Below, one piece after another: positions 7,727 through 51,110 of a DNA stretch of 64,000 bases. The notes beneath the pieces were generated by a model. That model did no database searches and had not been told where the DNA came from. It saw only the letters and a program-made list of their open reading frames with translations. Both the position numbers and the translations under genes were made by a program. Origin of the DNA: an uncultured bacterium (GTDB lineage Bacteria > Muiribacteriota > Ozemobacteria > Ozemobacterales > Ozemobacteraceae); contig ONIU01000005.1 of assembly GCA_900317935.1 (NCBI GenBank), positions 1,726 through 65,725 on the forward strand, in the 5' to 3' direction. Within the stretch, counting starts at the first letter, position 1. Every line of letters begins with the position of its first letter.

Positions 7727-7862
7727 AAGACCCCTTTCGTCTGCCTTACGGCAGCCACTTCCCCCACCTACGTGGGGGAAGTTCTTCAAGAAGCGCCCCC
7801 AGAATTTTGAAAAAATTGCTGGGGGAGGAGCTGGCGAGCGATAGCGAGACTTAGGGGGTCTT
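7727..7862 (+). repeat. Intergenic structured module M1 (AAGACCCC...GGGGTCTT), copy 1
   Basis: Complementary ends at 7727-7734 and 7855-7862. Internal hairpins CTGCC/GGCAG (7741-7754), CCCCCAC/GTGGGGG (7761-7778) and CCCCCAG/CTGGGGG (7796-7825). Shares the GAAGCGCCCCCAG and GGGGGTCTT cores with the copies near 41.6, 44.5 and 51.0 kb. Confidence 0.8.
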
Positions 7863-34841: not shown

Positions 34842-34866
34842 TTCGTATATTTAAGACAATAAAAAA

Positions 34867-34895: not shown

Positions 34896-34915
34896 GTTTT
34901 AGTCTTTACTGATTA

Positions 34916-35518: not shown

Positions 35519-35603
35519 TATAACCTCCAGATTTTTGTTTATTATACAATATTTGAGAGATATCGCAAGGTTTTTGTTTAATGTTTTAGATGTATGATAT
35601 AAG

Positions 35604-35837
35604 AGTTGGAAGTGTTGGAAGGGTTAGAAGTGTTGGAAGGGTTGGAAGTGTTGGAATGGTTAGATGTCTTAGAAGTGTTGGAAGTGTTGGAAGAGTTAGA
35701 AGAGTTGGAAGGGTTGGAAGTGTTGGAAGGGTTGGAAGAGTTGGAAGTGTTGGAAGGGTTGGAAGTGTTGGAAGGGTTAGAAGTGTTGGAATGGTTAGAA
35801 GTGTTGGAAGGGTTGGAAGGGTAGGAAGGGTTAGAAA
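35604..35837. repeat. 26-unit 9-bp tandem repeat (consensus NGTTGGAAG)
   Basis: Counted unit by unit from 35604. Variants are GTTAGAAG, GTTGGAAT and GTAGGAAG. Flanked by ATAAG on the left and GTAACGCTTTGCTGTG on the right, the same flanks that bracket the 4-5 unit tract inside M2 modules. Confidence 0.9.
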
Positions 35838-35865
35838 TGTAACGCTTTGCTGTGTCTTCTAAAGC

Positions 35866-35883
35866 CCCTCCTTGAGGAGGGGA
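35866..35883. repeat. GC-rich hairpin CCCCTCC-TTGA-GGAGGGG
   Basis: 7-bp perfect stem immediately after the 9-mer tract, 75 nt downstream of the stop of the helicase gene on the opposite strand. Confidence 0.6.
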
Positions 35884-35957
35884 ATAAAAGGGGTGGTGAC
35901 CTAACCATAGTAAACTATAGTTCTTTGAGTAGTTGTTGTAGTTGGTAGTTATTGTAA

Positions 35958-38516
35958 TTATTGTCTAAAAAAGTCCTGGGCACTTTTTAAAAGTAAGCGG
36001 AACTTTCCTTTTATAAAAGGTGATTCAGGAAGTGAATGAAGGAAATAACTGCCGTAAAACTTGTTGATAATTCTGTTATCAAGTATCCAGACAGTGCCTC
36101 TGTCTTTTTTTGAACGTATAAGCCTCCCAAAACCCTGTTTAAGCTTTATGGCCGCCATAGGAAGCTGATAGTCCTTAAATGGGTTACCACCATTTTCTTT
36201 TATTTTTTCGTTCCTTGCTTCAAGAACAGGGTCATTTGGTGAAGCAAAGGGCAGTTTAAGGATAATAAGATTTCTTAAAGATTCTCCAGGAATGTCTACG
36301 CCTTCCCAAAATGAATCTGTTCCAAATAACACTGCGTTTCCGTCTTCTTTGAATAATTCTACAAGATATTGTCTATCGAAGTCGCCCTGCTTATAACAGT
36401 TGATTCCTTGTGCTTCTAGTATAGGGCTAATATTATTATAGAACATATTTAAATGTGAATAAGAAGTGCACAGAACCAATGTACCGCCGAGAGATGATTT
36501 GATTATATCAATAATAGGTTGGGAAGCCTGTTCAATAAACAAGGCACTTGATGGGTCTGGTAAATCTGATGGTACAAACAATCTTGATTGTTCTTTATAA
36601 TCAAAAGGAGATTTATATCTTCCTTCGATTAGATTTGCTGAAATCTCTTCATTTGTTAAACCCAGTCTGGTTTTTAAAAAATTAAAGTTACCGCCAGTTG
36701 TCATTGTTCCAGACACCATTATTGTACATGGAATCTTATCGAAGCAATAATCTATCATCTGCTGAGAAATTGTAATCGGCAAAGAAGAATATGAAGTGTA
36801 TTTCCCCGTTTTGCGAACATTTGAAGTAAAGAAATGTACATAATCAGCTCTGTTTTCTGTTTCTAGCTCAAACATCATTTCAAGTCCGTTAGAAACTTCA
36901 TCTAGTCTGCTCGAATAATTATTTAATTCTGTGAAGGGAACTTCATAAATAGAATTATCTTCTTCAAAATCAGGCACAGAACTGTTTAAACGCCTTGCAA
37001 ATTTTTTCATTGAAGCAGATAAATGTTTTAATTCATCTTTCAGCTTTTTTGCTGTTGCACTTAAGATATTAAACTCATTTGAGGCTTCTTGCTTCGGGGT
37101 GACACGCAATCTGTATTCTCCAAGCTGAGTGCTGTCATTTAAAAGAAAACTTGTTATTGAATCGAATAGAACCTTGGAAATATCAGCTATTTCCATTCTT
37201 GAAGGAACAAGTATATCATTTATATCTTTTAAAAGAAGTTCTCTGTCTGAATCTTCTATATCGCCATGTTTAAAGGCTAGTGCGTTCGTTAACGTATAGA
37301 AGGTTCCGGATTCTTTTCTTCCCCGTTTTTGATAAATTTTGTTCATCAACCTTTGAAGTCCTGTAGCTGTAGTTCTGTAGCCAAAATGCTTAGTAGCTGT
37401 TTCTTCAAGATTATGAGCTTCATCCATTATAATTGCTTTGCAGGCTGGAATTACTGCTGTTTGAGAATATTCTGATGTTTCCGCTCTCAAAGCCAAATCG
37501 GAAAACAATAAAGAATGATTTACTACTAAAATATCGGCTTCAGCTGCTTTTCTTCGAGCATTATAAAAGAAGCATTCATTGTAATCCGGGCATTTTACTC
37601 CGGGGCAACTGTCTTTATCACAACAGACTTTATCCCATAAGCTTTCAGATGGAACCCAGGTTAAATCGCTCAAAGAACCGTCAGTCGTTTTTTCCATCCA
37701 GGCTGCTAATTTTTGAAATTGTGGAAATTCTAGTTCATCAAGAAGAAAGTCTGCATTATCACTTGCTGTAGCTTCTTTAACTCTTCTTAAGCAGATGTAA
37801 TTACTTCTACCTTTTAACAGACAATATTTGAAATCAAAAGGAATTATACTTTCAAGAAAAGGTAAATCTTTATCTATGAGCTGATATTGTAGATTTATGG
37901 TATTTGTAGAAACACAGACTCGGCATCTGTTCTTATGTGAGTAAAATATAGCTGGAATAAGATATGCCATACTTTTGCCTATACCCGTTTCACCCTCTAA
38001 TATTGCATGACAGGGACCATTTAAAGCATCTGTTATTTTTCCCATCAATTCTATCTGACCGTCACGTTGCTCATAATTTTTGAGCTTGGACGCAATTGGG
38101 CCTTCTTTCGAAATGTAGGCTATCATCTCTTTTTTGCTTAACTGCTCTGGTTGTTCTTCTATATAAGGTTCAACAACGACATAAAATTCAGAACAGTCAT
38201 TATTGTGGATTGCAAAACCTATTCCGGATTTCCCACAAATTGAAGCAACGCCCATATCGGCTTCTGAAGGTTTTAAGCGTCCTGATGGGTGATTGTGCAG
38301 AAGAACTTCTCCTGGTCTTAAGCTTTTAATAATCGCAGGAGCAGAATCTATTGTTCCTCTGGATATTACACGAACATCTGTATACTGGTCAGGTGCACAA
38401 CAGACTGCAGCTGAACATACTTCACAGCCGCCAGCCTGTTCTATTTCTTCTTTTAGATATTGTCTGTCATATTCATTTAATGTGACAGGTGAGGCTTTTT
38501 TCTTTCTACCAACCAT
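35958..38516 (-). CDS. dinG: DinG/Rad3-family Fe-S helicase with N-terminal RadC-like JAB/MPN metalloprotease domain
   Basis: 852 aa. JAMM motif HNHPSGRLKPSEAD in the first roughly 120 aa. Walker A GETGIGKS, DEAH box IMDEAHNLE, Cys cluster C..CCDKDSCPGVKCPDYNEC, motif V GTDSFWEGVDIPG and motif VI QGFGRLIRS. Confidence 0.8.
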   Translation of the reverse strand: MVGRKKKASPVTLNEYDRQYLKEEIEQAGGCEVCSAAVCCAPDQYTDVRVISRGTIDSAPAIIKSLRPGEVLLHNHPSGRLKPSEADMGVASICGKSGIGFAIHNNDCSEFYVVVEPYIEEQPEQLSKKEMIAYISKEGPIASKLKNYEQRDGQIELMGKITDALNGPCHAILEGETGIGKSMAYLIPAIFYSHKNRCRVCVSTNTINLQYQLIDKDLPFLESIIPFDFKYCLLKGRSNYICLRRVKEATASDNADFLLDELEFPQFQKLAAWMEKTTDGSLSDLTWVPSESLWDKVCCDKDSCPGVKCPDYNECFFYNARRKAAEADILVVNHSLLFSDLALRAETSEYSQTAVIPACKAIIMDEAHNLEETATKHFGYRTTATGLQRLMNKIYQKRGRKESGTFYTLTNALAFKHGDIEDSDRELLLKDINDILVPSRMEIADISKVLFDSITSFLLNDSTQLGEYRLRVTPKQEASNEFNILSATAKKLKDELKHLSASMKKFARRLNSSVPDFEEDNSIYEVPFTELNNYSSRLDEVSNGLEMMFELETENRADYVHFFTSNVRKTGKYTSYSSLPITISQQMIDYCFDKIPCTIMVSGTMTTGGNFNFLKTRLGLTNEEISANLIEGRYKSPFDYKEQSRLFVPSDLPDPSSALFIEQASQPIIDIIKSSLGGTLVLCTSYSHLNMFYNNISPILEAQGINCYKQGDFDRQYLVELFKEDGNAVLFGTDSFWEGVDIPGESLRNLIILKLPFASPNDPVLEARNEKIKENGGNPFKDYQLPMAAIKLKQGFGRLIRSKKDRGTVWILDNRIINKFYGSYFLHSLPESPFIKGKFRLLLKSAQDFFRQ

Positions 38517-39836
38517 TTAGGCTTTGTTTTCGTTTGTCTGTTCTTTTTTTTCAGGTGCTTTAAGAATTGAAAGTGTTTTGATCATTTCTTCATTCTTCAA
38601 TTCTTCTGCTAATTCAAAAATACTCTTATCTTCTTTGGTTTTGACTGTTATATCTGAACCGGCTGAAATAAGAAGTCTGACTGCTTCGAGGTTATTGCAT
38701 CTGATTGCAGCAAGTAGAGGCGTGTCAAAATTATCGTCACGTCTTTCTAATAAGACTCCATAACCTAATAAGGTAGCAAGAACGTCATACTGCTTTTCTA
38801 CAATAGCCATTTGAAGAGGTGTAAAACCGTATTTGTCGCGTGTTTCCGGGTCTGCGCCATTATCTATCAATATTTTGACTATTTCGTAATGACCCATTTT
38901 TGATGCTTCAAGAATAGGTGAATGACCAGAAATTGTTTCACATCTATGAACGTCAGAGCCTTTTTCCAAAAGCATTTTTACAGCGGGTATATTTCCTATT
39001 TGAGAAGCTGTAAGAAGGAGAGTCATGCCCATTTCGTCATTTTCATCCTTCAAAGACGGGTATTCATCGATTAGTTTTGCAAGTTCATCTATTTTGTTTT
39101 CTAATAATAAATCTTTTGCTTCGTTATATTTGCTTGAAATGGTCATTGATTGTGGAATTTTAGAAACTTCTTCAATATATTCAAGCAATCTGTCTTTGGG
39201 TAAATCTTCGTTCTTTTCATCTAAAAGCTTGGTAACTTCAGGAAGACTATTCATTAAAATAGCTGAAATTGTAAGACTTTTACTTTGTCTATAGTTAGAA
39301 AGTAGGCATTCAAGACCCTGAACATATAAAACAGGAATTTTATTGCTTTTTCCAACCCCAGTAAGAAATCTGGCAAAACTGAAGTTTAAACGAGGCTGTT
39401 TGAGTCTTTCAAAGTAGATACATGCATTTTGGGCTTTTTGAATTCTCATTACATGTTCTTTGTCATGGAATGATGTGGTCCAGGCTAGGTGACTTAACTT
39501 GTTGCAGAGCACTGCGTCACCTTTAGCACAGGCTATTTCTGCACAAACAGAAGTTAAAAAGCTTGTTTGAATATAGTCAAAAACAAAGGGGTGGGGTTCC
39601 TGACCTAAGAATTCATTAAGCGCATCGTCATCTCTATCTAGCTTTAAATAACATATAAAAGTGTAATATTTTTGCCACCCAAGCATAATTGGATCAACAG
39701 GCTTTTCAGCATACATCCTTTGTTTCATTTCAGCACAAAGAGCTAGTGCTTTTTCATAATTCTTATTGGTTATAAGATTCATTATTTCTTTTAGATATAC
39801 ATCGTAAAGTTGTTGTTTTTCCATTTTTGTCTCCAT
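38517..39836 (-). CDS. TPR-like helical / ankyrin-repeat protein
   Basis: ORF track starts at TTG 39887; the first ATG is at 39836, and ATG 39824 has GGAG 6 nt upstream. The C-terminal half has 4-5 ANK repeats (GMTLLLTASQIGNIPAVKMLLEKGSDV, GHSPILEASKMGHYEIVKILIDNGADP and others). Its stop abuts the helicase start (TAAATG). Confidence 0.8.
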   Translation of the reverse strand: METKMEKQQLYDVYLKEIMNLITNKNYEKALALCAEMKQRMYAEKPVDPIMLGWQKYYTFICYLKLDRDDDALNEFLGQEPHPFVFDYIQTSFLTSVCAEIACAKGDAVLCNKLSHLAWTTSFHDKEHVMRIQKAQNACIYFERLKQPRLNFSFARFLTGVGKSNKIPVLYVQGLECLLSNYRQSKSLTISAILMNSLPEVTKLLDEKNEDLPKDRLLEYIEEVSKIPQSMTISSKYNEAKDLLLENKIDELAKLIDEYPSLKDENDEMGMTLLLTASQIGNIPAVKMLLEKGSDVHRCETISGHSPILEASKMGHYEIVKILIDNGADPETRDKYGFTPLQMAIVEKQYDVLATLLGYGVLLERRDDNFDTPLLAAIRCNNLEAVRLLISAGSDITVKTKEDKSIFELAEELKNEEMIKTLSILKAPEKKEQTNENKA

Positions 39837-39960
39837 ATTTGGGTGCAATATATTTATTGAGCAGATATCATACCTTTTATTTCTCAATAAAACAATAGTC
39901 TAGGAAAATTTGTTTTGGATGTTTTTTGTAAAAGTTTCACTGTTTTGTTATTAAAATCCC

Positions 39961-40420
39961 GCTTAATCCCCATTTAAGAAAGGGGTAATTATAACAGCTG
40001 ACTGACGACCAACAGGATGTTGGGAGTGCAAGCGAGCGCCAGGATGTCAAGCGAGTCGTAGGGGGCATAAAGCTTCGCAGTGTTACGCTTCTCTGTGGGA
40101 CTCTTCGTTGTGGGACAGCAGCATAACGACTTGTGGGAATTGTTATAAGGGTGAGAAGGGTTGGAAGGGTTGGAAGGGTTAGAAGTGGAACGCTGCGGTG
40201 TGGTACACTTCGTTGTGGGACGTTTCACTGTGGTTATTGTCGAACAACTCCCACAGGCAGCGTTAGCTGCAGTCTCACAAGTTGTGTTAGCAACAGTCCC
40301 ACAGAGGCTTTAGCCTCGTTCCACCAACCACCAATATCTCCATCTTAGGTCTTGTGTCTCAAGTTCTGGTCTTATATCTCCATCTTTGGTCTTGTATCTC
40401 AATTTTAATGGCTCTTGATT
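39961..40420 (+). repeat. Composite intergenic repeat locus R4 (degenerate M1 + M2 + short tandem tracts)
   Basis: Direct repeat AGGATGT..CAAGCGAG x2 (40014-40056). M2 at 40069-40325, nearly identical to 41735-42006. Then a CCACCAACCACC / GGTCTTGT(A/G)TCTC tract to about 40410. Confidence 0.85.
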
Positions 40421-40467
40421 TTAACTTTACAAAATAATAGAATAACAATAATTAAGGAGAGCAAATC

Positions 40468-41514
40468 ATGGGTTTCACTTCAAAAATAATATATAAAGCA
40501 TTGGAAACAGGTTTTATTCCAGACAGAATCACTAAACTCTGGATGAAATATCTATGTTATAGAACAATAAAGAACGCAAAACTAGATAATATTGAAGCTA
40601 GAAATTCTGTGTTCAGACAAATAAGAAGCGATTTGCTAAATGGCTCAGAAATTAGAAAATATTATTTTACCGAAAGAAACTCTATTGATTTCCCCCTTAC
40701 TTTTTACGATTATTTTTTGGGGAAAAATCTCAGTCTTACTTGTGGTTATTTCTCTACTGGTGCAGAAGACCTCAATGAGGCTGAAGATACTGCTTTATGG
40801 CTTGCCTCTGAACACGCAAGAATCAGAGAAGGTATGAGTATTTTAGAAATCGGTTGCGGAGCAGGTGCATTCTCTTTCTGGCTTGCGAATAAATATCCTA
40901 GCTGCAAGATAACTGCGTTAACTCCTTCCCCCAAAATGCTTTCCAATCTCAGAAAAAAAGCTCAAGAACTTGATATTAACAATATTAACTTTATCAGTCA
41001 GGAAATTAAAGATTTTACTGATGCAGATAAATTCGATAGAGTAATCTGTCTTGAAAGATTCGACTTATTAGCTTCTCTTGGTAATTGGGAAAAAAGGGTA
41101 AAGAAGCTCTTAAATAAAGACGGAATGTTTTTCATGACCGCCAGAGTTCATTCTTCTACTGCATTTTATGAAGATTCCACTGGTTTTGATAATATGCCCG
41201 GAAATAACGTAATTGAAGATGTTATTATTCCTTCTGTAAAAAGCTTGATGTTGACTACACCAGATTTACATCTTGTTGATATGTGGGAAATCAGCGGACT
41301 TCATTATAAGCAGACTGCCGATAAATGGTTCAGAAAATTTACTTTTAATAAAGAACCTATTTTAAGGGCCTTAGAAAAAGCTTACGGTAGTGATAAAGCT
41401 CATAGCTGGTATAACAAAATGAGACTTTACATATTAAGTCTATACGAAAGATATGGTTATAATCATGGGCAGGAATGGATAACCGCCCAGTATCTCTATT
41501 CGCCTTCTAAGTAA
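40468..41514 (+). CDS. Cyclopropane-fatty-acyl-phospholipid synthase-like SAM methyltransferase
   Basis: 348 aa with AAGGAGA RBS. CMAS-type region FYDYFLGKNLSLTCGYF...LNEAEDTAL and SAM motif ILEIGCGAGAFSFWLA. Confidence 0.75.
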   Translation: MGFTSKIIYKALETGFIPDRITKLWMKYLCYRTIKNAKLDNIEARNSVFRQIRSDLLNGSEIRKYYFTERNSIDFPLTFYDYFLGKNLSLTCGYFSTGAEDLNEAEDTALWLASEHARIREGMSILEIGCGAGAFSFWLANKYPSCKITALTPSPKMLSNLRKKAQELDINNINFISQEIKDFTDADKFDRVICLERFDLLASLGNWEKRVKKLLNKDGMFFMTARVHSSTAFYEDSTGFDNMPGNNVIEDVIIPSVKSLMLTTPDLHLVDMWEISGLHYKQTADKWFRKFTFNKEPILRALEKAYGSDKAHSWYNKMRLYILSLYERYGYNHGQEWITAQYLYSPSK

Positions 41515-41540
41515 CCCACCACACTATGCTGGCTACGCCA

Positions 41541-41734
41541 GTAAGACCCCTTTCGGTTCCTGTGGAACCACTTTCCCAGCAATGCTATCGCATTCTGGGG
41601 GCAGATCGTTTTCTCAAAGAAGCGCCCCCAGTTTTGCAATTAGAGATGGCGACGTAGTGATCATCCATCCCGATGCTCCCCCAGAGTTTGAAAAACTGCT
41701 GGGGGAGCTGTCACGAAGTGACTGAGGGGGTCTT
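41541..41734 (+). repeat. Intergenic structured module M1, long copy
   Basis: Complementary AAGACCCC (41543-41550) and GGGGTCTT (41727-41734). Hairpins GGTTCC/GGAACC (41555-41569), AATGC/GCATT (41581-41594) and GTCAC/GTGAC (41710-41722). GAAGCGCCCCCAG core with a duplicated CCCCCAG. Confidence 0.85.
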
Positions 41735-42006
41735 AAAGCTTCGCAGTGTTACGCTTCGTTGTGGGACAGCAGCATAACTACTTGTGGGAATTGTTATAAG
41801 AGTGAGAAGGGTTGGAAGGGTTGGAAGGGTTAGAAGTGGAACGCTGCGCTGTGGGACACTTCGTTGTGGGACGGCTGTTTACAGCCTGTGGTAATAGTCA
41901 ACAACAAACACAGGCAGCGTTAGCTGCCGTCTCACAAGTTGTGTTAGCGACAGTCTCACAAGTTGCGTCAGCAACAGTCCCACAGAGGCTTTAGCCTCGT
42001 CCCACC
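41735..42006 (+). repeat. Intergenic palindromic module M2 (TGTGGGAC iterons / GTCYCACA + hairpins), full copy
   Basis: Left arm has YTGTGGGA(C/A) x5 around a 4-unit GGTTGGAAG tract. Right arm has GTCTCACA, GTCTCACA, GTCCCACA, each followed by a 5-6 bp stem hairpin (GGCAGC/GCTGCC, GTTGC/GCAAC, GAGGC/GCCTC). Confidence 0.9.
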
Positions 42007-42012
42007 TACTTC

Positions 42013-42630
42013 TCACCTGCTAGGTGGTTTATCAATATACATCAGGCCGCTTGAATATAAATCTTTGAAGGTAACGATACCTTTTCCTTTTAAAACATCA
42101 AAGAAGTTCAGCAGTAGAACTTTGACTGCTTCTGTATCGTTCATAGCTCTATGAGCATCAACAAGATTATAGCCAAAATATTTTGCAGAATTTTCAAGCT
42201 TGTTTGACGGTAGTTTTAAAAGTTTCCTAGATAAATTAAGTGTGCAGAGCGATGGCGATTTATAGTCGATTCCAAGACATTCTTTAAAGAAATATTCAAA
42301 AAAAGACCAGTCGAAAGGCACATTATGAGATACAAATATATTGTTTTTCAGCATATTATGAAGAACAGGTGCTAATTCGCTGATAGTTGGAGAATCCTTA
42401 ACCATTTCGTCTGTTATATGCGTTATGTTTGTTATTTCTTCAGGAATATGACATTCAGGGTTTACAAAGGATTCAAATCTTTCTTCTTTTCCATCTTCGT
42501 ATAGAATTATTGCAACTTCTGTTATTTTTGCCGGTCCTGGTTTGAAGCCGGTGGTTTCTAAGTCTAATATAGCATAAGGAAGTTTTGAAATTTCGGTGTT
42601 TATATACTTATCAATAAAAGAGTTATTCAT
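42013..42630 (-). CDS. DnaQ-like 3'-5' exonuclease (DEDDh family)
   Basis: 205 aa. Exo I AILDLETTG, Exo II FVSHNVPFDWSF and Exo III HRAMNDTEA. Confidence 0.8.
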   Translation of the reverse strand: MNNSFIDKYINTEISKLPYAILDLETTGFKPGPAKITEVAIILYEDGKEERFESFVNPECHIPEEITNITHITDEMVKDSPTISELAPVLHNMLKNNIFVSHNVPFDWSFFEYFFKECLGIDYKSPSLCTLNLSRKLLKLPSNKLENSAKYFGYNLVDAHRAMNDTEAVKVLLLNFFDVLKGKGIVTFKDLYSSGLMYIDKPPSR

Positions 42631-42751
42631 TGGTGCCTGCTTTAATCTTGTTTAATTTACTCCATTATAACATAATGTAATATAAAAAGATTCTTTTATT
42701 ACGAAGAATAATTATCTGTTATAAAAGTTTCTAATGATGAGAATTTACTAA

Positions 42752-44107
42752 CTAATTGTTGGATATAGATCCTAGTTTACCTTTTTTCTTAAGAATAAAG
42801 CAAAGAATGGCGATGGCAAAAGCGGTAATAGCTAAGCTTACCGGGTATGATTGCATTATTGTTGTAAAAGTAGGAGACTTTTTGAAGATTGTATTAACCC
42901 AGGCTATTCTAATTCCACATATACATATTAGACTTATTAATGCGGGGCCTAGTGATTGACCAAATCCTCTAAGCAGACCAGATAAAATATCCTGAATGAT
43001 TGAGAAAATAAATGCAAAAGCTAACCAATAAAGCCTGATATAGCCTATTTCTATTACTTCAGCATCTTTGCAGAATAAACCAAGAAGTTCTTTGTAATAT
43101 ATAAGCATTAAACTTGCTGCAATTGTTGTGAATAAATAACTGTAGCCCATGCAGATATACATTGATTTTCGGCATCTATCATATTTATGTGCTCCATTAT
43201 TCTGCCCTACAAAGGTGGTGCAGGTCTGCCCGAAGGAAGATAGAACAAAGAATGCAAATATTTCTACATTTAGAGCTGCTGCAGAACCAGCCATAACAGT
43301 TGCCCCAAGACTATTTATAGATGATTGAATAACAAGATTTGATAATGCAAACATCATAGACTGTATTCCTGCTGGAATACCTATTCTCAATATACGTATA
43401 AGAGTAGGTTTAGTTATTTTAAGCTGTCCAAAATCAACATGAACATCGGAATCAGACTTTGCTAAACCATTAAGTAAATAGAGTGAACTGATTATATTAG
43501 CAGTTACTGTTGCAATAGCTACTCCGTCAACACTCATTCCACCACCGCAAACAAGGGCAATATTAAGAATCACATTTGTTATTCCAGATATAACTAAGGC
43601 TGTTAATGGAGTTTTTGTGTCGCCAATCGCTCTGTATATTGCAGCTTCAAAGTTATAAAGCAATATAACTGGCATTCCAAGTAGATAAATTCTTAAATAA
43701 AGAGTGGCAAGTTTTAAACATTCTTCTGGAACAGACATCCAGTTTAAAATATAACCCGCTGCGAATTCTCCAAAAATGGCTAGAAGAACACCGCAAATAG
43801 CAGAGGTATATATGGAAGTATGAACACATTTTCTTATTCGGCTTTCATCTTTAGCGCCTATGGCATTGGCTAATACAACGTTTGTTCCAAGAGAGATTCC
43901 GATGAAAAGGTTAATTAAAAGGCTTATTACAGGAGCGTTGCTTCCAACCGCAGCCATAGCATGAGGGCCTCTGAATTGGCCGACTACTGCTAAGTCTGCT
44001 GCATTGAAAAGCTGTTGCAGTATTCCTGTTATGGCTAATGGAATGGCATAAAAAAGAATTTTATCCCACAGAGAGCCGTTAAGCATGTCTATTTTTTTGC
44101 CAGCCAT
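42752..44107 (-). CDS. MATE family efflux transporter
   Basis: 451 aa with 12 predicted TM helices and a typical MATE N-terminus (LWDKILFYAIPLAITGILQQLFNAADLAVVG). Confidence 0.9.
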   Translation of the reverse strand: MAGKKIDMLNGSLWDKILFYAIPLAITGILQQLFNAADLAVVGQFRGPHAMAAVGSNAPVISLLINLFIGISLGTNVVLANAIGAKDESRIRKCVHTSIYTSAICGVLLAIFGEFAAGYILNWMSVPEECLKLATLYLRIYLLGMPVILLYNFEAAIYRAIGDTKTPLTALVISGITNVILNIALVCGGGMSVDGVAIATVTANIISSLYLLNGLAKSDSDVHVDFGQLKITKPTLIRILRIGIPAGIQSMMFALSNLVIQSSINSLGATVMAGSAAALNVEIFAFFVLSSFGQTCTTFVGQNNGAHKYDRCRKSMYICMGYSYLFTTIAASLMLIYYKELLGLFCKDAEVIEIGYIRLYWLAFAFIFSIIQDILSGLLRGFGQSLGPALISLICICGIRIAWVNTIFKKSPTFTTIMQSYPVSLAITAFAIAILCFILKKKGKLGSISNN

Positions 44108-44171
44108 TTTTTTACCTTTAAAAATTTAGTAGTTATTTTATTAAGCCGTTTATTCGTAATTGTCAAGATTT

Positions 44172-44556
44172 CTAAAAGAAGAAGCGCCCAAAGCGAGACT
44201 GAGATGGCTTTAAAGTAGTGGAATGCTTTGCTGTGATACACTTCGTTGTGTGACAGCAGCATAACTGCTTGTGGGAATTGTTATAAGAGTTAGAAGGGTT
44301 GGAAGGGTTTAAAAGAATGAAGTGTAACGCTGCGCTGTGGGACACTTCGTTGTGGGACGGCTGTTTACAGCCTGTGGTAATAGTCAACAACAAACACAGG
44401 CAGCGTTAGCTGCCGTCTCTCAATTTGCGTCAGCAACAGTCCCACAGAGGCTTTAGCCTCGTCTCACCATCTGACAACCGAGGGCAGATCGTTTTTCCCC
44501 GAAGCGCCCCCAGTTTAGCAATTTGAGCTGTCAGCTTGCTGACTGAGGGGGTCTTC
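44172..44556 (+). repeat. Composite intergenic repeat locus R6 (degenerate M1 - M2 - short M1)
   Basis: GAAGAAGCGCCC at 44178. M2 at 44212-44468. Short M1 at 44480-44555 with a GTCAG/CTGAC hairpin (44530-44543) and a GAGGGGGTCTT end. Lies in the divergent promoter region between the MATE gene and the first channel gene. Confidence 0.85.
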
Positions 44557-44646
44557 TCTTTATCCAAATAAATAACTTAAATTTCTGAGCAAAATAATAT
44601 ACAATACTGACAAATTTATAATTCATACTCATAAAAGGAAATTGCT

Positions 44647-46389
44647 ATGAAAAATATCAAGTCAAACTTAGTTTTAATCATTATTTTCGTTGAAATTTTC
44701 CTCGTTATGGGTATTACCTTTATCGTTAAAACTCTAAATTATGAAGATTATACCGAGAAAAAATTTATAGATAAAACTACTCAGGTTTTGAAAGAAACGG
44801 CTTCAGGTAAAGATGTTGATGCAATTATAGAAGAGGGTGGGGCTAAATTTAATAAACTTCTTACAACTCTTGATATTGCTCAAAACAGTTTTGCTTTTGC
44901 TATAGACTCAAATCTTAAAATTAAGATGTATAACAAAACTAAGGAAGAATTCAGCAAAGCTCTTGATATTTCCATGTTTCCTCAATTAAAGGAAGTAAAC
45001 ACATTAGCTTTTTATGTTTCTAAACGCCAATCAAGTAATTTTGAGTATTTTTCCGAATCTAGCAAAGAAAAACTAATATACTTTGTAGAGCCTGTTCCGA
45101 ACTCTAAGTGGGTATTGGTTGTCAGTGTCTTAAAAGACAGCATTGTCATGAAAACGGTTACAGAAAAAAGATACTTTTTTTGTGGTATAGCATGCTGTAT
45201 TTTTGCTTTAACAATGACTGCCGCTTTCTTCGGTTGGGTTCTTCCTAAGGATATAAAAAATAAATTCTGGTATTCAGCTTCTTTTATTTCTTTAGGTCTT
45301 TCTGTTGGAATTAGTATTTTATGCGTTTTCAGCAATAAGTATCATGATTACGAAAACCCAGAAGAAATTTCTTTGACTGACCAGAACATAATTGATGGCT
45401 TTCTAGATAAGTTTGATAATCAACTTGTTGAAGAAGGAAACAGCAGAATAAACAGAGTCAGAGTAGGGGTTTTCTTAAAAAATCTTGATTTTGAATCCAG
45501 CACAAAGGTTAATTTTTCCGGTTATTTGTGGCAAAAATTAGATAAAGACCAGTTGGGAAAGATAAAAGAAGGCTTTTATTTTGCTGACTCCTTTAAAAGC
45601 AAGTTTCATAAACTTCATGAAAAAGAAAATTCTGATGGAAGCAAGATATTTGTCTGGTATTTTACTTGTCTTGTGAGCTGTGATTTGGCTGAGAACAAAC
45701 TTTATCCATTTGATGTAGAATCAGTAAGTTTAAGACTGAGTTCTTCTGATTTTGGGAATAATGTAATACTTGTTCCTGATATTAGAGATTATGTTGATAT
45801 TGAGCCTTATTCGAAACCAGGAATCTATAATAACCTTACTATACCAGGCTGGAATGTTTCTGAAAGTTATTTCACTTATTTAAAGGAAAACTATAACTCT
45901 ACTTTTGGGGTTTTTCAGTCTCATACTGGCGGGTCACTTAATAACGAACTTTATTTTAAAGTAATTCTCAGAAGGTCTTTCTTAGGTTCTTTCATAAGTA
46001 TATTCCTGCCAATATTCGTTACAATGGTCATGATGTTTATTCTTCTATTAACTTGTTCCAGCGATGAAGAAAGATCAAAGAAACTTGGTTTCTCTGCAGG
46101 GGCTATATTAGCCAGCACTGCCGCGTTATTCTTTGTTGTTATCGTTGCTCAGATTGACTTAAGAGACAAGGTTGCTGCTAATGGGCTTATATATATGGAT
46201 ATTTACTATTTCGTAACCTATTTGATGTTTATGATAGTTAGCATTGATTCAATTCTGCTTTGCTGGCCTGATAAATTCAAATGGATAATCTGGGAAGACA
46301 ATATTATTGTTAAAAGCCTGTTCTGGCCAGTTGCTACTTCTATTATTTTCCTGTCTACCTTGGTTTATTATTTCCCAAGCGGTATATGA
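44647..46389 (+). CDS. Pentameric ligand-gated ion channel (pLGIC/Cys-loop superfamily) homolog with N-terminal TM-sensor-TM module, paralog 1
   Basis: 580 aa. The C-terminal roughly 350 aa show VRVGVFLKNLDFESSTKVNFSGYLWQKL (beta1-2), LYPFDVESVSLRL (Cys-loop-equivalent YPFD), ILRRSFLGSFISIFLPIFV (M1), ERSKKLGFSAGAILASTAALFFVV (M2), YMDIYYFVTY (M3) and a C-terminal M4. The N-terminal roughly 230 aa are TM, a roughly 150-aa extracytoplasmic domain, then two TM helices. Confidence 0.75.
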   Translation: MKNIKSNLVLIIIFVEIFLVMGITFIVKTLNYEDYTEKKFIDKTTQVLKETASGKDVDAIIEEGGAKFNKLLTTLDIAQNSFAFAIDSNLKIKMYNKTKEEFSKALDISMFPQLKEVNTLAFYVSKRQSSNFEYFSESSKEKLIYFVEPVPNSKWVLVVSVLKDSIVMKTVTEKRYFFCGIACCIFALTMTAAFFGWVLPKDIKNKFWYSASFISLGLSVGISILCVFSNKYHDYENPEEISLTDQNIIDGFLDKFDNQLVEEGNSRINRVRVGVFLKNLDFESSTKVNFSGYLWQKLDKDQLGKIKEGFYFADSFKSKFHKLHEKENSDGSKIFVWYFTCLVSCDLAENKLYPFDVESVSLRLSSSDFGNNVILVPDIRDYVDIEPYSKPGIYNNLTIPGWNVSESYFTYLKENYNSTFGVFQSHTGGSLNNELYFKVILRRSFLGSFISIFLPIFVTMVMMFILLLTCSSDEERSKKLGFSAGAILASTAALFFVVIVAQIDLRDKVAANGLIYMDIYYFVTYLMFMIVSIDSILLCWPDKFKWIIWEDNIIVKSLFWPVATSIIFLSTLVYYFPSGI

Positions 46390-46489: not shown

Positions 46490-48229
46490 ATGAAAAATAT
46501 TAAAACCAGTATTGCTATACCAATTATTTTTATCTGGTTGTTTCTTGTTCTTGGAATAACCCTGATAGTAAAAACTGTTAATTATGAAAGTTATACAGAA
46601 TTAAAGTTTATAGATAAAACTACTAAAACTTTACAGAAAACTGTTTCTGAAAAAGGCTTAAATGAAATCATCGACGAAGGCGGAGCTAAATTCAATAAGC
46701 TTTTGACAAAGCTTGATATAGCGCAGAACTCTTTTGCATTAGCTATTGATTCTGATAAAAAGATTAAAATCTATAATAAAACCAAGGCAGAAGTCAGTGA
46801 ATCCCTGGATATTTCAATATTCCCTCATTTAAAAGATAACAAAGAACTAATTGATCTGGTAACTAAACATCAATCCGGGCACTTTGAATTCATTTCAAAT
46901 ACAAGCAAGGAAAAATTATATTGTTTTGTAGAAGCTGTTCCGAGCTCTAAATGGTGCTTAGTAGTTACTGTTTTAAAAGATAGTATTGTTATGAAGACAA
47001 TTAAGGAAAAACGATACTATTTTTCTGGTATAGCCTGCTGCATTATATCTTTTACTATGTTGATTACATTGCTGGGTTGGCTTTTCCCTAAAAATATAAA
47101 AAATAAATTCTGGTATTCTTCCTCATTGTTTTCTATAGTTCTTGCTTTGGGAATAAGCATGCTTTGTGTTTTCAGCAACAAATTTAATGACTATGAAAGC
47201 CCTCAGGAAATCTCTTTAACAGACCAGAACATTATCGAAGGTTTCCTTGATAAATATGACAATCAGTTGGCTGAAGAAGGTAATGGACAAATAAATAGAG
47301 TTAAAGTAGGTATTTTCCTTAAGAATATTGATTTCGAATCAAGCACAAAGGTAAATTATAGCGGTTATCTTTGGGAAAAGCTTACCAAAGAACAGGTTGG
47401 AAACATAGAACCTGGTTTATATTTTTCTGATTCATTTAAAAGTAAATTTCAGCAGTTATATGAAAAGGATAATCCTGACGGCAGCAAAGTCTACGTCTGG
47501 TATTTTGAGTGCCGTCTAAGCGCTGACTTGCAGGAGAAAAAGCTTTATCCTTTTGATGTAGAAGCAGTAAAAGTCAGACTTCGCTCAAGGGATTTCGGAA
47601 ACAATGTTATTCTTGTGCCTGATACCAAGGATTATGTTGATGTAGAACCTCATGCAAAACCTGGAATATATAACCAGATGACAATTCCAGGCTGGAATAT
47701 TTCTGAAAGCTTTTTTACTTATTTAAAAGAACAATATGATTCAACTTTTGGTGTGTTCCACTCTCATACAGGAAGTATAGTTTATACTGAACTCTATTTT
47801 AACGTTATATTGAGACGTTCATTTTTAGGTTCATTTATTAGTATATTCCTGCCTATATTCGTAACTTTAGTCATGATTTTTATTCTGCTTCTCACCTGTT
47901 CCAATGATGAGGAAAGGTCGAAGCATCTTGGTTTCTCTGCAGGAGCTATATTAGCCAGCACAGCTGCATTATTCTTCGTTGTAATCGTAGCTCAGATTGA
48001 TTTAAGAGATAAAGTGGCGGCCGATGGCCTGATTTACATGGATATTTATTATTTTGTAACTTACTTTGAATTTATGCTTGTCAGCATTAACTCTATTTTG
48101 ATGTGCTGGCCAGATAAGTTTAAATGGGTTGCCTGGGAAGACAATATCTTGGTAAAAAGCACTTTCTGGCCAATAGTTACATCTATAATATTTATAGCTA
48201 CGCTATTTTATTACTTCCCAAGAATCTAG
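46490..48229 (+). CDS. pLGIC homolog with N-terminal TM-sensor-TM module, paralog 2
   Basis: 579 aa, colinear with 44647..46389 over the full length. The pore region is nearly identical and the N-terminal sensor region is more diverged. Confidence 0.75.
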   Translation: MKNIKTSIAIPIIFIWLFLVLGITLIVKTVNYESYTELKFIDKTTKTLQKTVSEKGLNEIIDEGGAKFNKLLTKLDIAQNSFALAIDSDKKIKIYNKTKAEVSESLDISIFPHLKDNKELIDLVTKHQSGHFEFISNTSKEKLYCFVEAVPSSKWCLVVTVLKDSIVMKTIKEKRYYFSGIACCIISFTMLITLLGWLFPKNIKNKFWYSSSLFSIVLALGISMLCVFSNKFNDYESPQEISLTDQNIIEGFLDKYDNQLAEEGNGQINRVKVGIFLKNIDFESSTKVNYSGYLWEKLTKEQVGNIEPGLYFSDSFKSKFQQLYEKDNPDGSKVYVWYFECRLSADLQEKKLYPFDVEAVKVRLRSRDFGNNVILVPDTKDYVDVEPHAKPGIYNQMTIPGWNISESFFTYLKEQYDSTFGVFHSHTGSIVYTELYFNVILRRSFLGSFISIFLPIFVTLVMIFILLLTCSNDEERSKHLGFSAGAILASTAALFFVVIVAQIDLRDKVAADGLIYMDIYYFVTYFEFMLVSINSILMCWPDKFKWVAWEDNILVKSTFWPIVTSIIFIATLFYYFPRI

Positions 48230-50747: not shown

Positions 50748-51110
50748 TCTTCTAACTTGAAACTCGTAACTTGTAACTAAGTGTTACGCTTCGCTGTGGG
50801 ACACTTCGTTGTGAGACAGCTGTTTACAGCCTGTGGAAATAGACAACAATAAACACGGACAGCTTTAGCTGCCGTCTCACAGATTGCTCGCAATCGTCTC
50901 ACAGAGGCTTTAGCCTCGTTCCACTGTCTAAATATCGAGGTCAGAACTTTTTACTCGAAGAAGCGCCCCTAAAATGCCTTCGGCATTGCTGGGGGAGCTG
51001 TCACGTAGTGACTGAGGGGGTCTTTAAGATAATTCTAAATTCTCACTCACTACCTATCACCCACCACTAAACTTGTAACTTGTAACTTAAAACTTAAAAC
51101 TTATATCTAA
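50748..51110 (+). repeat. Composite intergenic repeat locus R7 (heptamer tract - short M2 - short M1 - tracts)
   Basis: CTTGTAAC-type tract at 50748-50780. M2 without the 9-mer tract at 50781-50924. M1 at 50937-51024 with AATGCC/GGCATT (50973-50987) and GTCAC/GTGAC (51000-51012). CACC and AACTTGT/AACTTAA tracts extend to about 51110. Confidence 0.85.

What the first reader, a model, noticed from the sequence alone, without database searches (positions are those of the whole stretch)
41541..41734. Module M1: candidate structured RNA or REP-like element with compensatory stem changes
M1 copies lie at 7727-7862, 41541-41734, 44480-44555 and 50937-51024, with degenerate remnants at 40014-40068 and 44178-44211. 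They share GAAGCGCCCCCAG ... CTGGGGGAG-hairpin-TGAGGGGGTCTT. The hairpin just before TGAGGGGG is GTCAC-GAA-GTGAC (41710-41722), GTCAC-GTA-GTGAC (51000-51012) or GTCAG-CTTG-CTGAC (44530-44543). That is a C:G to G:C double change that preserves pairing. An upstream hairpin is AATGC-TATC-GCATT (41581-41594) in one copy and AATGCC-TTC-GGCATT (50973-50987) in another. In the two long copies the 5' AAGACCCC can close the whole element against the 3' GGGGTCTT. Structure-preserving variation in a dispersed element suggests function at the RNA level (3'-UTR stabiliser, sRNA or processing site) or as a protein-recognised DNA hairpin.
Basis: seen in the sequence. Interest (0 to 1): 0.7.

Follow-up and report, generated by a model that had tools for sequence, protein, structure and literature searches.

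The report
Palindromic triplex-motif DNA repeat, hairpin-swapping
M1 is a real dispersed non-coding repeat in a rumen Riflebacteria genome, but the evidence points to a DNA-level element rather than an RNA gene: it is an inverted pair of hairpin-plus-"triplex motif" units that is also abundant in Caulobacter, and its small hairpins are swapped wholesale between nearly identical strains.

Summary
All four copies, their shared motifs and the quoted hairpins are at the stated coordinates. Structure-preserving variation is strongly supported: 94% of cells pair over 18 units, and 11 of 17 pairs change on both sides.

The RNA reading is not supported.
- A covariance model built from the 3' half also hits the 5' half on the opposite strand. 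A full M1 is therefore an inverted doublet of one unit of about 50-70 nt.
- That model hits 78 sites in Caulobacter and Phenylobacterium (E down to 2e-10), and BLAST finds relatives in Azospirillum.
- Each unit has a C5 arm, a G5 arm (CTGGGGGAG), a c-GNA-g mini-hairpin, and a second G5 segment (GAGGGGGTC) that mirrors the first. This is the sequence rule of the published intrastrand DNA triplex motifs (TMECO, Holder 2015), but with hairpin-expanded loops.
- Among strains at least 99% identical, two hairpins at one locus are replaced independently as cassettes.
- Copies are absent from related species. Copies in the window lie next to segments that relatives lack, and one relative carries M1 in frame inside a methylase gene.
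- There is no Rfam match and no transposase nearby.

Verdict: a DNA-level palindromic repeat, a new variant of a known kind. How it spreads is unknown.

The parts
7727..7862 (+). Full M1 doublet. Left arm X is 7727-7786 (reverse-complement unit, B type). Right arm Y is 7788-7862 (A type). In this copy the terminal segment of Y is GGCGAGC-GATA-GCGAGAC, which is not a clean hairpin.
   Evidence: Read. The covariance model hits 7788-7862 on + (E = 5.8e-17) and 7727-7786 on - (E = 9.7e-5). The fold has z = -5.4. The copy is kept at the orthologous site in L127, L146 and L147.
41543..41734 (+). Full M1 doublet with an extra internal piece. Arm X is 41543-41609 and carries hairpins GGTTCC-TGT-GGAACC and TCCCAG-CAATGCTATCGCATT-CTGGGGG. 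A partial second Y start, GAAGCGCCCCCAG-TTTTGCAATTAGAG, lies at 41619-41645. Arm Y is 41670-41734.
   Evidence: Read. The covariance model hits 41670-41734 on + (E = 8.9e-18) and 41543-41609 on - (E = 2.8e-6). The fold has z = -5.3. Both X hairpins are replaced in strains L118 and L121.
44480..44555 (+). Singlet Y unit. It starts inside the 3' arm of the X-type C5/G5 hairpin (GAGGGCAGATCG), lacks the CTGGGGGAG segment, and has terminal hairpin GTCAG-CTTG-CTGAC. It sits at the end of a block of about 380 nt (44176-44555) that is absent in relatives.
   Evidence: Read. The covariance model hits 44499-44555 (E = 2.5e-7). The empty site is seen in L128, L129 and L130 and there is no M1 in L149.
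50937..51024 (+). Singlet Y unit with inner palindrome AATGCC-TTC-GGCATT and terminal hairpin GTCAC-GTA-GTGAC. It is preceded by an M2 copy.
   Evidence: Read. The covariance model hits 50958-51024 (E = 1.7e-19).
44179..44211 (+). Degenerate Y remnant (GAAGCGCCC-AAAGCGAGAC-TGAGATGGCTTT) directly followed by AAAG and M2.
   Evidence: Read. The covariance model gives only E = 6.4. Support comes from its position next to M2, which matches copy 41543.
40014..40068 (+). Putative degenerate Y remnant (...GCGAGCGCCAGGATGTCAAGCGAGTCGTAGGGGGCAT) directly followed by AAAG and M2.
   Evidence: Read. It is not detected by nhmmer or the covariance model. Support comes only from position and from resemblance to the end of copy 7727.

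Best explanation
M1 is a non-coding, dispersed DNA repeat that acts at the DNA level.

Shown:
- A full copy is an inverted doublet of one unit of about 50-70 nt. The shorter copies are single units.
- Read on its own strand, each unit runs as follows: C-rich arm GC(G/T)CCCCCAG; loop 1; G-rich arm CTGGGGGAG; a short hairpin that is nearly always closed C:G around a G-N-A triloop; then GAGGGGGTC(TT). That last segment is the exact mirror of the G-rich arm.
- The same family is abundant in Caulobacter and Phenylobacterium and present in Azospirillum.

Inferred:
- This arrangement is the sequence rule for a purine-motif intrastrand DNA triplex (G*G:C and A*A:T triads) capped by a very stable single-stranded-DNA mini-hairpin. 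M1 is therefore a hairpin-expanded relative of the G/C-rich triplex motifs (TMECO) that Holder et al. 2015 showed to fold in vitro and linked with rearranged loci.
- When the unit strand is single-stranded, during replication or transcription, it folds. Folding obstructs replication and promotes template switching, short-patch conversion between copies, deletion and insertion.
- That would produce the hairpin-cassette swaps between near-identical strains, the truncated singlets, the presence/absence differences and the position next to variable segments.

The hairpins stay paired because the folded form is what is recognised or propagated, not because an RNA needs them.

How new copies are made is not shown. 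It could be a trans-acting enzyme that recognises folded single-stranded DNA, or recombination alone.
For: Doublet architecture:
- Model R1, built only from 3' halves, hits the 5' halves on the minus strand: window 41543-41609 at E = 2.8e-6 and 7727-7786 at 9.7e-5, L063 at 3e-5, L127 at 4e-4, and L148 and L118.

Cross-phylum family:
- R1 gives 78 hits in alphaproteobacterial loci, nearly all Caulobacter and Phenylobacterium, down to E = 2.1e-10.
- The same A-type and B-type arms plus a linker are seen by eye in Caulobacter.
- Azospirillum relatives are found by BLAST and by reading.

Triplex rule:
- CTGGGGGAG and GAGGGGGTC are exact mirrors.
- There is a three-way association of C arm, G arm and third segment over 86 units in four types.
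- The published TMECO pattern, including its 3' GTC tail, its in-vitro triplex, its link with rearranged loci and its 'palindromic' inverted pairs, is in PMC4666352.

Hairpin upkeep:
- 94% of cells pair and 11 of 17 pairs change on both sides, with 0 of 500 shuffles reaching that.
- In Caulobacterales 98.6% of cells pair.
- There are 28 distinct terminal-hairpin segments in 75 units. 18 are perfect stems, and mean stem length is 3.6 against 1.4 when shuffled.

Single-stranded-DNA signature:
- By my count from the list, 21 of the 28 segments have a c-GNA-g loop on the unit strand.
- d(GNA) loops closed by C:G are extraordinarily stable DNA mini-hairpins (PMC13037366, PMC3201870).
- Y units fold better on +, by about 5 kcal/mol in most. 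X units fold better on -, by about 3.

Turnover and mobility:
- L118 differs from the window by 28 scattered differences in 6 kb plus two clusters of 12 or more changes exactly at hairpins 1 and 2. L121 is recombinant.
- L118's hairpin allele GGCACTACGTGCC recurs at another locus in L148.
- There is an empty site in L128-L130.
- No M1 is found in relatives L128-L132, L138-L145 and L149.
- L063 carries an in-frame insert of about 45 aa in a methylase linker that 7 of 10 homologues lack.
- The window is essentially a whole contig that ends in a repeat.
Against: - Triplex folding of M1 itself is not shown.
- Loop 2 (15-17 nt) and, in Riflebacteria, loop 1 (14-19 nt) exceed the 1-6 nt limits used to define the published motifs.
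- In most Riflebacteria Y units the duplex position under the A*A:T triad is a G.A mismatch (GCG instead of GCT).
- The X arms carry a weakened third segment (GAAAGGGG).
- No mobilising enzyme was found. No window ORF matched a transposase, integrase or RAYT family in the scans done. No Pfam family recurs among 129 neighbouring ORFs in 40 loci.
- No target-site duplication is visible.
- Copy 7727 is stable across three lineages, so not every copy turns over quickly.
- The co-orientation of all informative copies with neighbouring genes (3 tandem contexts plus 1 in-ORF copy) is not explained, although the sample is very small.
- The covariation counts were made on alignments fitted to the model and include related sequences.
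Confidence: 0.6

Rival explanations
1. M1 is a REPIN-like element. The inverted doublet is the replicative unit. It is cut and pasted as single-stranded DNA by a trans-acting HUH/Y1 tyrosine transposase (a RAYT or IS200/IS605-type enzyme) that recognises the foot of the c-GNA-g hairpin and the conserved GAGGGGGTCTT next to it. Singlets are decayed copies.
For: - It has inverted-doublet architecture, and both doublets and singlets exist, as in REPINs (PMC3116915).
- No target-site duplication is seen.
- The hairpin is conserved in shape but not in sequence, next to an invariant flanking motif.
- The GNA loop is strand-specific, which points to single-stranded DNA.
- Distribution among related species is patchy.
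Against: - No Y1 or RAYT domain was found in any window ORF scanned or among 129 ORFs next to elements in 40 loci.
- Units are 50-70 nt, not 20-25 nt.
- There is no GTAG or CGTC tag at the 5' foot.
- This reading does not by itself explain the mirror repeat CTGGGGGAG/GAGGGGGTC that is conserved across phyla.
Confidence: 0.2
2. M1 is a classical MITE. It is a deletion derivative of an insertion sequence and is moved by that element's DDE transposase, which binds the terminal inverted repeats AAGACCCC...GGGGTCTT.
For: - It has 8-11-nt terminal inverted repeats, is 120-190 nt long, carries no ORF and has a stable fold.
- A filled/empty site difference exists.
- One relative has an in-frame insertion in a gene, as reported for Rickettsia palindromic elements and other MITEs (PMC10969869).
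Against: - No target-site duplication is seen at any of the full copies.
- The 'TIR' is simply the outer end of a 50-70-nt unit whose whole framework is conserved from Caulobacter to Riflebacteria.
- No transposase is present in the window or near 40 loci.
- Single units are common and all begin at the same internal point.
Confidence: 0.1
3. M1 works mainly as RNA. Transcribed as part of neighbouring mRNAs, its multi-hairpin fold stabilises 3' ends, terminates or attenuates transcription, or is a processing site. Stems are kept by selection on the RNA.
For: - Covariation is strong and the fold is very stable.
- All informative copies are co-oriented with adjacent genes: 7727, 50937 and L125 lie in tandem contexts, and L063 is in sense inside an ORF.
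- Copy 7727 lies between a stop codon and a terminator-like hairpin and is kept in three lineages.
- The closing stem uses G:T (G:U) pairs on the + strand.
Against: - The two arms are inverted copies of one unit, and each arm folds better in its own sense: X folds better on the - strand.
- GNA loops lie on opposite strands in the two arms.
- Contexts are mixed: after a terminator in L148, 49-151 nt upstream of start codons, and inside a coding sequence.
- M1 contains no promoter- or terminator-like site and has no Rfam match, even a permissive one.
- Copies are absent in close relatives.
- Hairpins are swapped wholesale among 99%-identical strains.
- Wobble and mismatch positions show no consistent strand.
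Confidence: 0.12
4. M1 is a site for a site-specific recombinase, like a folded integron attC site, and it marks the borders of gene cassettes.
For: - All window copies have one orientation.
- The methyltransferase gene at 40468-41514 is flanked on both sides by M1(remnant)-M2 blocks.
- Segments bounded by M1/M2 are absent in relatives.
- Structure is conserved while hairpin sequence varies.
Against: - The ends carry no RYYYAAC/GTTRRRY core sites.
- No integrase or recombinase was found in the window ORFs scanned.
- The genes between copies are large and ordinary.
- In Caulobacter the elements sit among unrelated housekeeping genes.
Confidence: 0.03

Closest known systems
G/C-rich intrastrand triplex motifs (TMECO; Holder et al. 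2015, PMC4666352; E. coli BoxC repeats are mentioned there as found by another triplex tool)
   Same: - The segment order is the same: C-rich stem, G-rich stem, then a second G-rich stem that mirrors the first.
- Both have a 3' GTC tail.
- Both occur in many copies, intergenic, patchily among close relatives, and also as inverted 'palindromic' pairs.
- Both are linked with variable or rearranged loci.
- The Azospirillum copy has TMECO-like stems (CCCTCTCCCC/GGGGAGAGGG/GTGAGGGGGG) together with the M1-type mini-hairpin, and so bridges the two.
   Different: - The stems are C5AG/CTG5AG/GAG5TC, not CCCTCNCCC/GGGNGAGGG.
- Loop 2 is a 15-17-nt c-GNA-g mini-hairpin instead of 3 nt.
- Loop 1 carries a 14-19-nt AT-rich palindrome in Riflebacteria.
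- Triplex folding of M1 is untested.
- The hosts are a candidate phylum from the rumen and Caulobacterales.
REPINs (REP doublets forming hairpins; Bertels & Rainey 2011, PMC3116915)
   Same: - Both are inverted doublets of a palindromic unit with a short spacer.
- Doublets and singlets coexist.
- Both are extragenic and non-coding and are predicted to fold in single-stranded DNA or mRNA.
- Neither shows a target duplication.
   Different: - The unit is 50-70 nt with two hairpins and a mirror repeat, not a 20-25-nt REP.
- No RAYT was found.
- The two arms are consistently of two different types (A and B).
Small dispersed repeats (SDR) of Nostoc punctiforme (Elhai et al. 2008, Genome Res 18:1484). 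Cited from memory; the paper is not held. It is mentioned in PMC3116915.
   Same: Very short hairpin sequences occupy fixed slots inside larger repeats and replace one another. Heptamer tandem repeats lie nearby.
   Different: The phylum differs, no sequence comparison was possible, and here the exchange is seen directly between strains at least 99% identical at one locus.
CIR elements of Caulobacter and Brucella (Chen & Shapiro 2003, as described in PMC2229807)
   Same: The Caulobacter relatives of M1 are about 110-120 nt, have two arms joined by a linker, are intergenic and are abundant.
   Different: The defining GANTC methylation site in a hairpin loop is not seen in the conserved parts of the copies read. 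The original sequences could not be consulted.
Rickettsia palindromic elements (RPE) and other MITEs (PMC10969869, PMC3184786)
   Same: Both are palindromic repeats of 100-190 nt with terminal inverted repeats and a stable fold. One M1 relative is inserted in frame in a protein-coding gene (L063).
   Different: No target-site duplication or cognate IS was found, only one in-ORF case is known, and no sequence relation was tested.

Membership tests
Intrastrand triplex motif (ITxF/TMECO, Holder 2015) | [quoted passage not shown] | tested here: met
   Y has GC(T/G)CCCCCAG, CTGGGGGAG and GAGGGGGTC, which gives 7 mirror positions. X has CTTCCCCCAC, GTGGGGGAAG and GAAAGGGGTC, a mirror with one mismatch. 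This comes from reading and from the three-way table over 86 units.
Intrastrand triplex motif (ITxF/TMECO, Holder 2015) | Loops of 1-6 nt (TMECO: N3-6 and N3) and the pattern CCCTCNCCC...GGGNGAGGG...GGGNGAGGG. | tested here: not met
   Loop 2 is 15-17 nt and is itself a mini-hairpin. Loop 1 is 14-19 nt in Riflebacteria and 1-3 nt in Caulobacter. The stems differ from the TMECO pattern.
Intrastrand triplex motif (ITxF/TMECO, Holder 2015) | Optional 3' GTC after the third stem. | tested here: met
   All four window copies and the L125, L126, L127, L063 and L066 copies end GGGGGTC(TT).
Intrastrand triplex motif (ITxF/TMECO, Holder 2015) | Forms a triplex in vitro or in vivo. | not testable with these tools
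   This needs CD, NMR or footprinting. The folding tools used here model only Watson-Crick and wobble pairs.
Intrastrand triplex motif (ITxF/TMECO, Holder 2015) | Loci that carry the motif vary more among close relatives. | tested here: met
   Hairpin-cassette replacement is seen among strains at least 99% identical. An empty site is seen in relatives. Segments of about 9 kb and 47 kb next to M1/M2 blocks are absent in relatives. No control sites were analysed.
REPIN | Two palindromic units in inverted orientation with a short spacer. | tested here: met
   Model R1 hits the 5' halves on the minus strand. Caulobacter doublets have a 15-25-nt linker.
REPIN | The unit is a REP of about 20-25 nt. 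| tested here: not met
   Units are 50-70 nt and contain two hairpins.
REPIN | Associated RAYT (Y1 transposase) gene flanked by the repeats. | tested here: inconclusive
   None was found in the window ORFs scanned or among 129 ORFs within 2 kb of elements in 40 loci. Whole genomes could not be searched.
MITE | Terminal inverted repeats, small size and no ORF. | tested here: met
   AAGACCCC/GGGGTCTT pairs over 8-11 bp including G:T. Copies are 120-192 nt.
MITE | Target-site duplication flanking the element. | tested here: not met
   The flanks of 7727, 41543, L066 and the L148 copies share no direct repeat. Only 7727 has a possible TTAGA.
MITE | A cognate autonomous IS with the same termini. 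| not testable with these tools
[quoted passage not shown] | A conserved GANTC site in or at a terminal loop. | tested here: not met
   No GANTC is seen in the conserved arms or linkers of 28 Caulobacter copies read, or in M1. The original CIR sequences are not held.
Any Rfam RNA family | A match to a curated covariance model. | tested here: not met
   There were 0 matches at gathering score in the window and in 17 related loci. Nothing overlapped M1 at E up to 1 in 39900-44700.
Integron attC site | R''/R' core sites (RYYYAAC...GTTRRRY) and a nearby integron integrase. | tested here: not met
   The ends read AAGACCCC...GGGGTCTT. No integrase domain was found in the window ORFs scanned.
Nostoc SDR mini-elements | Hairpin elements of 21-27 nt that occupy and replace each other at fixed slots in larger repeats. 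| tested here: inconclusive
   The behaviour is seen. The defining sequences and criteria could not be consulted.

The most novel reading that the evidence does not exclude
The framework C5 / CTG5AG / c-GNA-g hairpin / GAG5TCTT is conserved almost base for base between a 33%-GC rumen Riflebacteria genome and 67%-GC Caulobacter. The reason would be that a dedicated, still unknown machinery recognises the folded single strand (triplex plus mini-hairpin). That machinery would both spread the units and exchange the small hairpins as independent micro-cassettes at fixed slots. This would be a hairpin-replacement form of mobility, so far proposed only for Nostoc SDRs, and here it could be followed in natural strain populations.
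Probability: 0.15. Interest if true: 0.75.

Novelty: new variant of a known kind. Interest (0 to 1): 0.45.

Why it matters
- It links three bodies of work that have been treated apart: REP/REPIN-like inverted doublets, intrastrand triplex motifs, and extraordinarily stable GNA mini-hairpins. All three features sit in one concrete element found in two distant phyla.
- The triplex-motif class appears wider than its published definition, which limits loops to 6 nt or less.
- Near-identical rumen strains that differ only by whole hairpin cassettes at one locus are a natural experiment on how palindromic repeats turn over: template switching or conversion rather than stepwise compensatory mutation.
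- They also warn that covariation in a dispersed repeat does not by itself indicate an RNA.
- Practically, these elements fragment metagenome assemblies of this lineage and lie next to variable genome segments.

Tried and rejected
- **Cyanobacterial origin.** The heptamer tandem repeats suggested Nostocales or Melainabacteria. This was rejected: UvrC is 99% identical to a protein of a 'Candidatus Riflebacteria' MAG, and relatives are rumen assemblies.
- **Genome scan.** It used a 19-nt pattern that I first wrote off as chance noise, and it consumed the only genome scan. Its length peaks later showed that most hits are real relatives.
- **Viral contig scan.** It gave 2 chance hits.
- **Plasmid BLAST with M1.** It gave nothing.
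- **nhmmer on the Caulobacter loci.** It missed them at E up to 1e-3. Only the covariance model found them.
- **Literature.** Elhai 2008 and Chen & Shapiro 2003 are not held. Searching the literature for sequence strings found nothing until the GGGAGAGGG/GGGTGAGGG pair was used.
- **Special conservation of copy 7727.** This was rejected, because the whole 7.7-8.7 kb stretch is 93-97% identical in relatives.
- **Strand-specific wobble pairs as an RNA signature.** No consistent strand was found.
- **One look-up was lost** to a wrong start codon.
- **Recurrent neighbouring gene.** None was found.
- **G-quadruplex.** Only three G5 runs lie on a strand in a full copy, so an intramolecular quadruplex is unlikely (reading).
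Full report
**1. Observation**

All are on the + strand and all lie between ORFs.

The shared 13-mer GAAGCGCCCCCAG occurs 6 times at up to 2 mismatches, against 0.25 expected by chance. The 12-mer TGAGGGGGTCTT alone is not significant.

Each quoted hairpin is at the quoted coordinates. Full-length copies fold far better than shuffles, with z about -5.3.

The two 'remnants' are weak. 44179-44211 scores E = 6.4 with the covariance model, and 40014-40068 is not detected. Both sit directly before the neighbouring repeat M2, exactly as copy 41543 does.

**2. Host and setting**

The window is essentially one metagenome contig of 64,485 bp. Assemblies at 99% identity or more come from rumen-type samples.

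UvrC is 99% identical to a protein of a 'Candidatus Riflebacteria' MAG. G+C is 0.30-0.38.

No window ORF matched a transposase, integrase or Y1 family in the scans done. There is no Rfam match, either at gathering score or permissively.

**3. More copies**

- A 29-nt pattern scan of metagenomes gave L125 and L126, which are new sites, and L127, which is the ortholog of copy 7727.
- Two Riflebacteria MAG loci from the genome scan, L063 and L066, carry copies.
- L146 and L147 keep copy 7727 in place, and L148 has three further units.
- Relatives L128-L132, L138-L145 and L149 have none.
- Relatives whose MatE protein is 94% identical have a 160-bp spacer where the window has a 540-bp spacer that contains remnant-M2-M1.
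- In relatives with 82-87% UvrC identity, UvrC lies about 1.7 kb from the signal-peptidase gene. In the window, 47 kb lie between those genes.

**4. Architecture**

A covariance model built only from eight 3' halves (A3, R1) finds the 5' halves on the opposite strand. The hits are window 41543-41609 at E = 2.8e-6, window 7727-7786 at 9.7e-5, L063 at 3e-5 and L127 at 4e-4.

A full M1 is therefore an inverted doublet [X = reverse-complement unit][Y = unit]. Hairpin 1 corresponds to hairpin 4, and hairpin 2 to hairpin 3. The shorter copies are single Y units that all start at the same internal point.

Y units fold better on the + strand and X units on the - strand. The asymmetry therefore belongs to the unit, not to a + strand transcript.

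**5. Structure-preserving variation**

- On 18 distinct Riflebacteria units, 94% of cells pair. 11 of 17 pairs change on both sides, 0 of 500 shuffles reach this, and slid controls give 27-51% paired.
- On 71 distinct alphaproteobacterial units, nearly all from Caulobacter and Phenylobacterium, 98.6% of cells pair.
- These alignments are fitted to the model and contain related sequences, so the numbers lean high.
- An independent tabulation of the terminal hairpin gives 28 distinct segments in 75 units. 18 of them are perfect 4-7-bp stems, including GTCAC, GTCAG, GGCAC, GTCGC, GGCCC, GTCGGC, GTCAGGC, GGCGC and GGTCC. Mean stem length is 3.6 against 1.4 for shuffles.

**6. How the variation arises**

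At the single locus 41543, strains that are otherwise at least 99% identical carry different hairpins.
- Hairpin 1 is GGTTCC-TGT-GGAACC or GGCAC-TAC-GTGCC.
- Hairpin 2 is TCCCAG-CAATGCTATCGCATT-CTGGGGG or CCCCCAA-CAGCTTACGCT-TTGGGGG.
- L121 combines one allele of each.

L118 differs from the window by 28 scattered differences in 6 kb, plus two clusters of at least 12 changes exactly at these hairpins. This is cassette replacement, not stepwise compensatory substitution.

The L118 allele GGCACTACGTGCC recurs at another locus in L148. The AATGC...GCATT palindrome occupies slot 2 in copy 41543 and slot 3 in copies 50937 and L063. This fits exchange among copies, which is an inference.

Copy 7727 is stable in three lineages, but the surrounding 1 kb is equally conserved.

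**7. Cross-phylum family**

The genome scan I had first dismissed shows sharp length peaks.

R1 hits 78 sites in alphaproteobacterial loci, nearly all Caulobacter and Phenylobacterium, down to E = 2.1e-10. Those elements are inverted doublets made of three parts:
- the reverse complement of an A-type arm, GACCCCCTCAGTCGCTCCGCGACAGCTCCCCCAGAGGGGGAGCATCT;
- a linker of 15-25 nt;
- a B-type arm, AGATCCTCCCCCTCTGGGGGAGGTGGCCCGGAGGGCCGGAGGGGGTCTT.

M1 Y is the A type, and M1 X is the reverse complement of the B type. The A/B asymmetry is therefore conserved between phyla.

Riflebacteria copies differ mainly by AT-rich palindromes inserted in the C5/G5 loop. Azospirillum chromids carry relatives.

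Neighbouring genes in 40 loci are unrelated housekeeping genes. Of 98 Pfam families, none occurs in more than 2 of the 129 ORFs. Rfam has nothing.

**8. Link to known biology**

The short-loop hits of the genome scan (CTCCCTCTCC-CTGGGGGAGAGGG-TT-GGGGTGAGGGGGTCTT) correspond to the published G/C-rich intrastrand triplex motif. That motif, TMECO, is 5'-CCCTCNCCC N3-6 GGGNGAGGG N3 GGGNGAGGG[GTC-]. It has 3610 copies in 262 proteobacterial genomes. It folds into a purine-motif triplex in vitro, is associated with rearranged loci, and is also found as inverted pairs (PMC4666352).

M1 obeys the same rule. CTGGGGGAG and GAGGGGGTC are exact mirrors, giving 7 triads, and they are followed by GTC. Over 86 units the C arm, G arm and third segment change together in four types.

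The Azospirillum copy has TMECO-like stems with the M1-type mini-hairpin in loop 2.

The loop-length limits and the exact pattern of the published family are not met. I therefore file M1 as a hairpin-expanded variant, not as a member of TMECO.

**9. Single-stranded-DNA signature**

By my count from the list, 21 of the 28 terminal segments have a G-N-A triloop closed by C:G on the strand that ends GGGGGTCTT-3'. All four bases occur at N.

d(GNA) loops with a C:G closing pair are extraordinarily stable DNA mini-hairpins (PMC13037366, PMC3201870).

X and Y lie on opposite strands, so one transcript could carry this loop in only one arm. That the element works as single-stranded DNA is an inference from this.

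**10. Other contexts**

In L063 a Y unit and an X unit lie in frame inside a DNA methylase ORF. They add about 45 residues in a linker that 7 of 10 homologues lack. This resembles Rickettsia palindromic elements (PMC10969869).

In L148 a copy follows a terminator-like hairpin. In 44480, L066 and L126 the unit ends 92, 49 and 151 nt upstream of a start codon. Copy 7727 lies between a stop codon and a terminator-like hairpin.

No promoter- or terminator-like site falls in M1. This variety argues against one RNA role.

**11. Verdict**

M1 is a DNA-level palindromic repeat. It is an inverted doublet of units that combine a C5/G5 hairpin, a GNA mini-hairpin and a mirror G5 segment.

It belongs to a family shared with Caulobacterales and is related to the intrastrand triplex motifs.

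- Shown: the architecture, the cross-phylum homology, the upkeep of pairing, the cassette swaps and the presence/absence differences.
- Inferred: triplex folding, replication-linked turnover and single-strand recognition.
- Unknown: the means of spread.

Noticed in passing
window 40069-40330, 41735-42012, 44212-44479, 50762-50936, 53284-53391, 53562-53740, 63843-64000; L148 212-400: A second repeat family, M2, is about 260 nt long. Its core is ACGCTGCGCTGTGGGACACTTCGTTGTGGGACGGCTGTTTACAGCCTGTGG...GGCAGCGTTAGCTGCC...GTCCCACAGAGGCTTTAGCCTCGT. It carries several GTGGGAC motifs on the left and GTCCCAC/GTCTCAC motifs on the right. It abuts M1 in five places: M1-AAAG-M2 three times and M2-M1 twice. 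It also ends the contig.
   Followed up: partly
window 7650-7715, 35565-35870, 40330-40406, 41795-41830, 50726-50778, 51056-51108, 51716-51890, 53392-53578: Short tandem repeats of 7-9 nt (AGAGCAT/AGAGCAGC, AACTTGT, TAAGATA, GGTTGGAAG, and a 9-nt array) fill the spacers around M1 and M2. They resemble the heptamer repeats of heterocystous cyanobacteria. The 9-nt array at 35565-35870 differs between strains at least 99% identical.
   Followed up: partly
window 4100-51200 and 33700-42700: Relatives L141-L145 have UvrC about 1.7 kb from the Peptidase_S26 gene, so about 47 kb of the window is extra or rearranged there. GCA_016648615.1, L130 and L149 place the FtsJ gene directly beside MatE (L128/L129 have a 278-aa orphan ORF between them), so about 9 kb carrying the helicase, ankyrin, CMAS and exonuclease genes is extra. 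M1/M2 blocks sit at or near these borders.
   Followed up: partly
L063 1318-1464 (Riflebacteria MAG Rumen_Coassembly_mag_344): A Y unit, 21 nt, and then an X unit lie in frame inside a 590-aa N6/N4 DNA methylase ORF. They encode about 45 residues in a linker that most homologues lack. This is an RPE-like gene insertion.
   Followed up: yes
L148 8690-8920: This spacer holds an array of at least seven different short perfect palindromes, separated by AT-rich spacers of about 10 nt. Examples are AGCGTCC-TACC-GGACGCT, CCTAGGGCATC-TTCG-ATGCCCTAGG, CCGTGGGTGTC-GAA-GACACCCACGG and CCTAGGGCG-TTAAAAA-CGCCCTAGG. This is another hairpin-rich spacer type in the lineage.
   Followed up: no
L001-L116 (loci), e.g. 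L009, L016, L030, L104 (Chloroflexota), L018, L052 (Rhizomicrobium), L045, L078 (Verrucomicrobia): The short-loop motif CTCCCTCTCC-CTGGGGGAGAGGG-TT-GGGGTGAGGGGGTCTT recurs, often several times per genome, in phyla well beyond the Proteobacteria covered by the TMECO survey.
   Followed up: partly
window 7879-7905: A terminator-like hairpin, GCCAAGC-TTT-GCTTGGC followed by ATGGTTGTTTTTAT, lies just downstream of copy 7727. It is conserved in L127 and L146. M1 copy 7727 would therefore lie inside the 3' UTR of the 952-aa gene.
   Followed up: no
window 44647-46389 / 46490-48229 and 55679-57382 / 57490-59106: There are two tandem gene duplicates. One is a pair of orphan ORFs of about 580 aa (69-76% nt identity). 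The other is a pair of AMP-binding enzyme genes (74-83%). Many window ORFs have no Pfam match.
   Followed up: no
window 42752-44107: Outside the lineage, the closest MatE homologues (about 56% identity) are from rumen and gut Firmicutes (Lachnospiraceae, Ruminococcus). This suggests horizontal acquisition within the rumen community.
   Followed up: no
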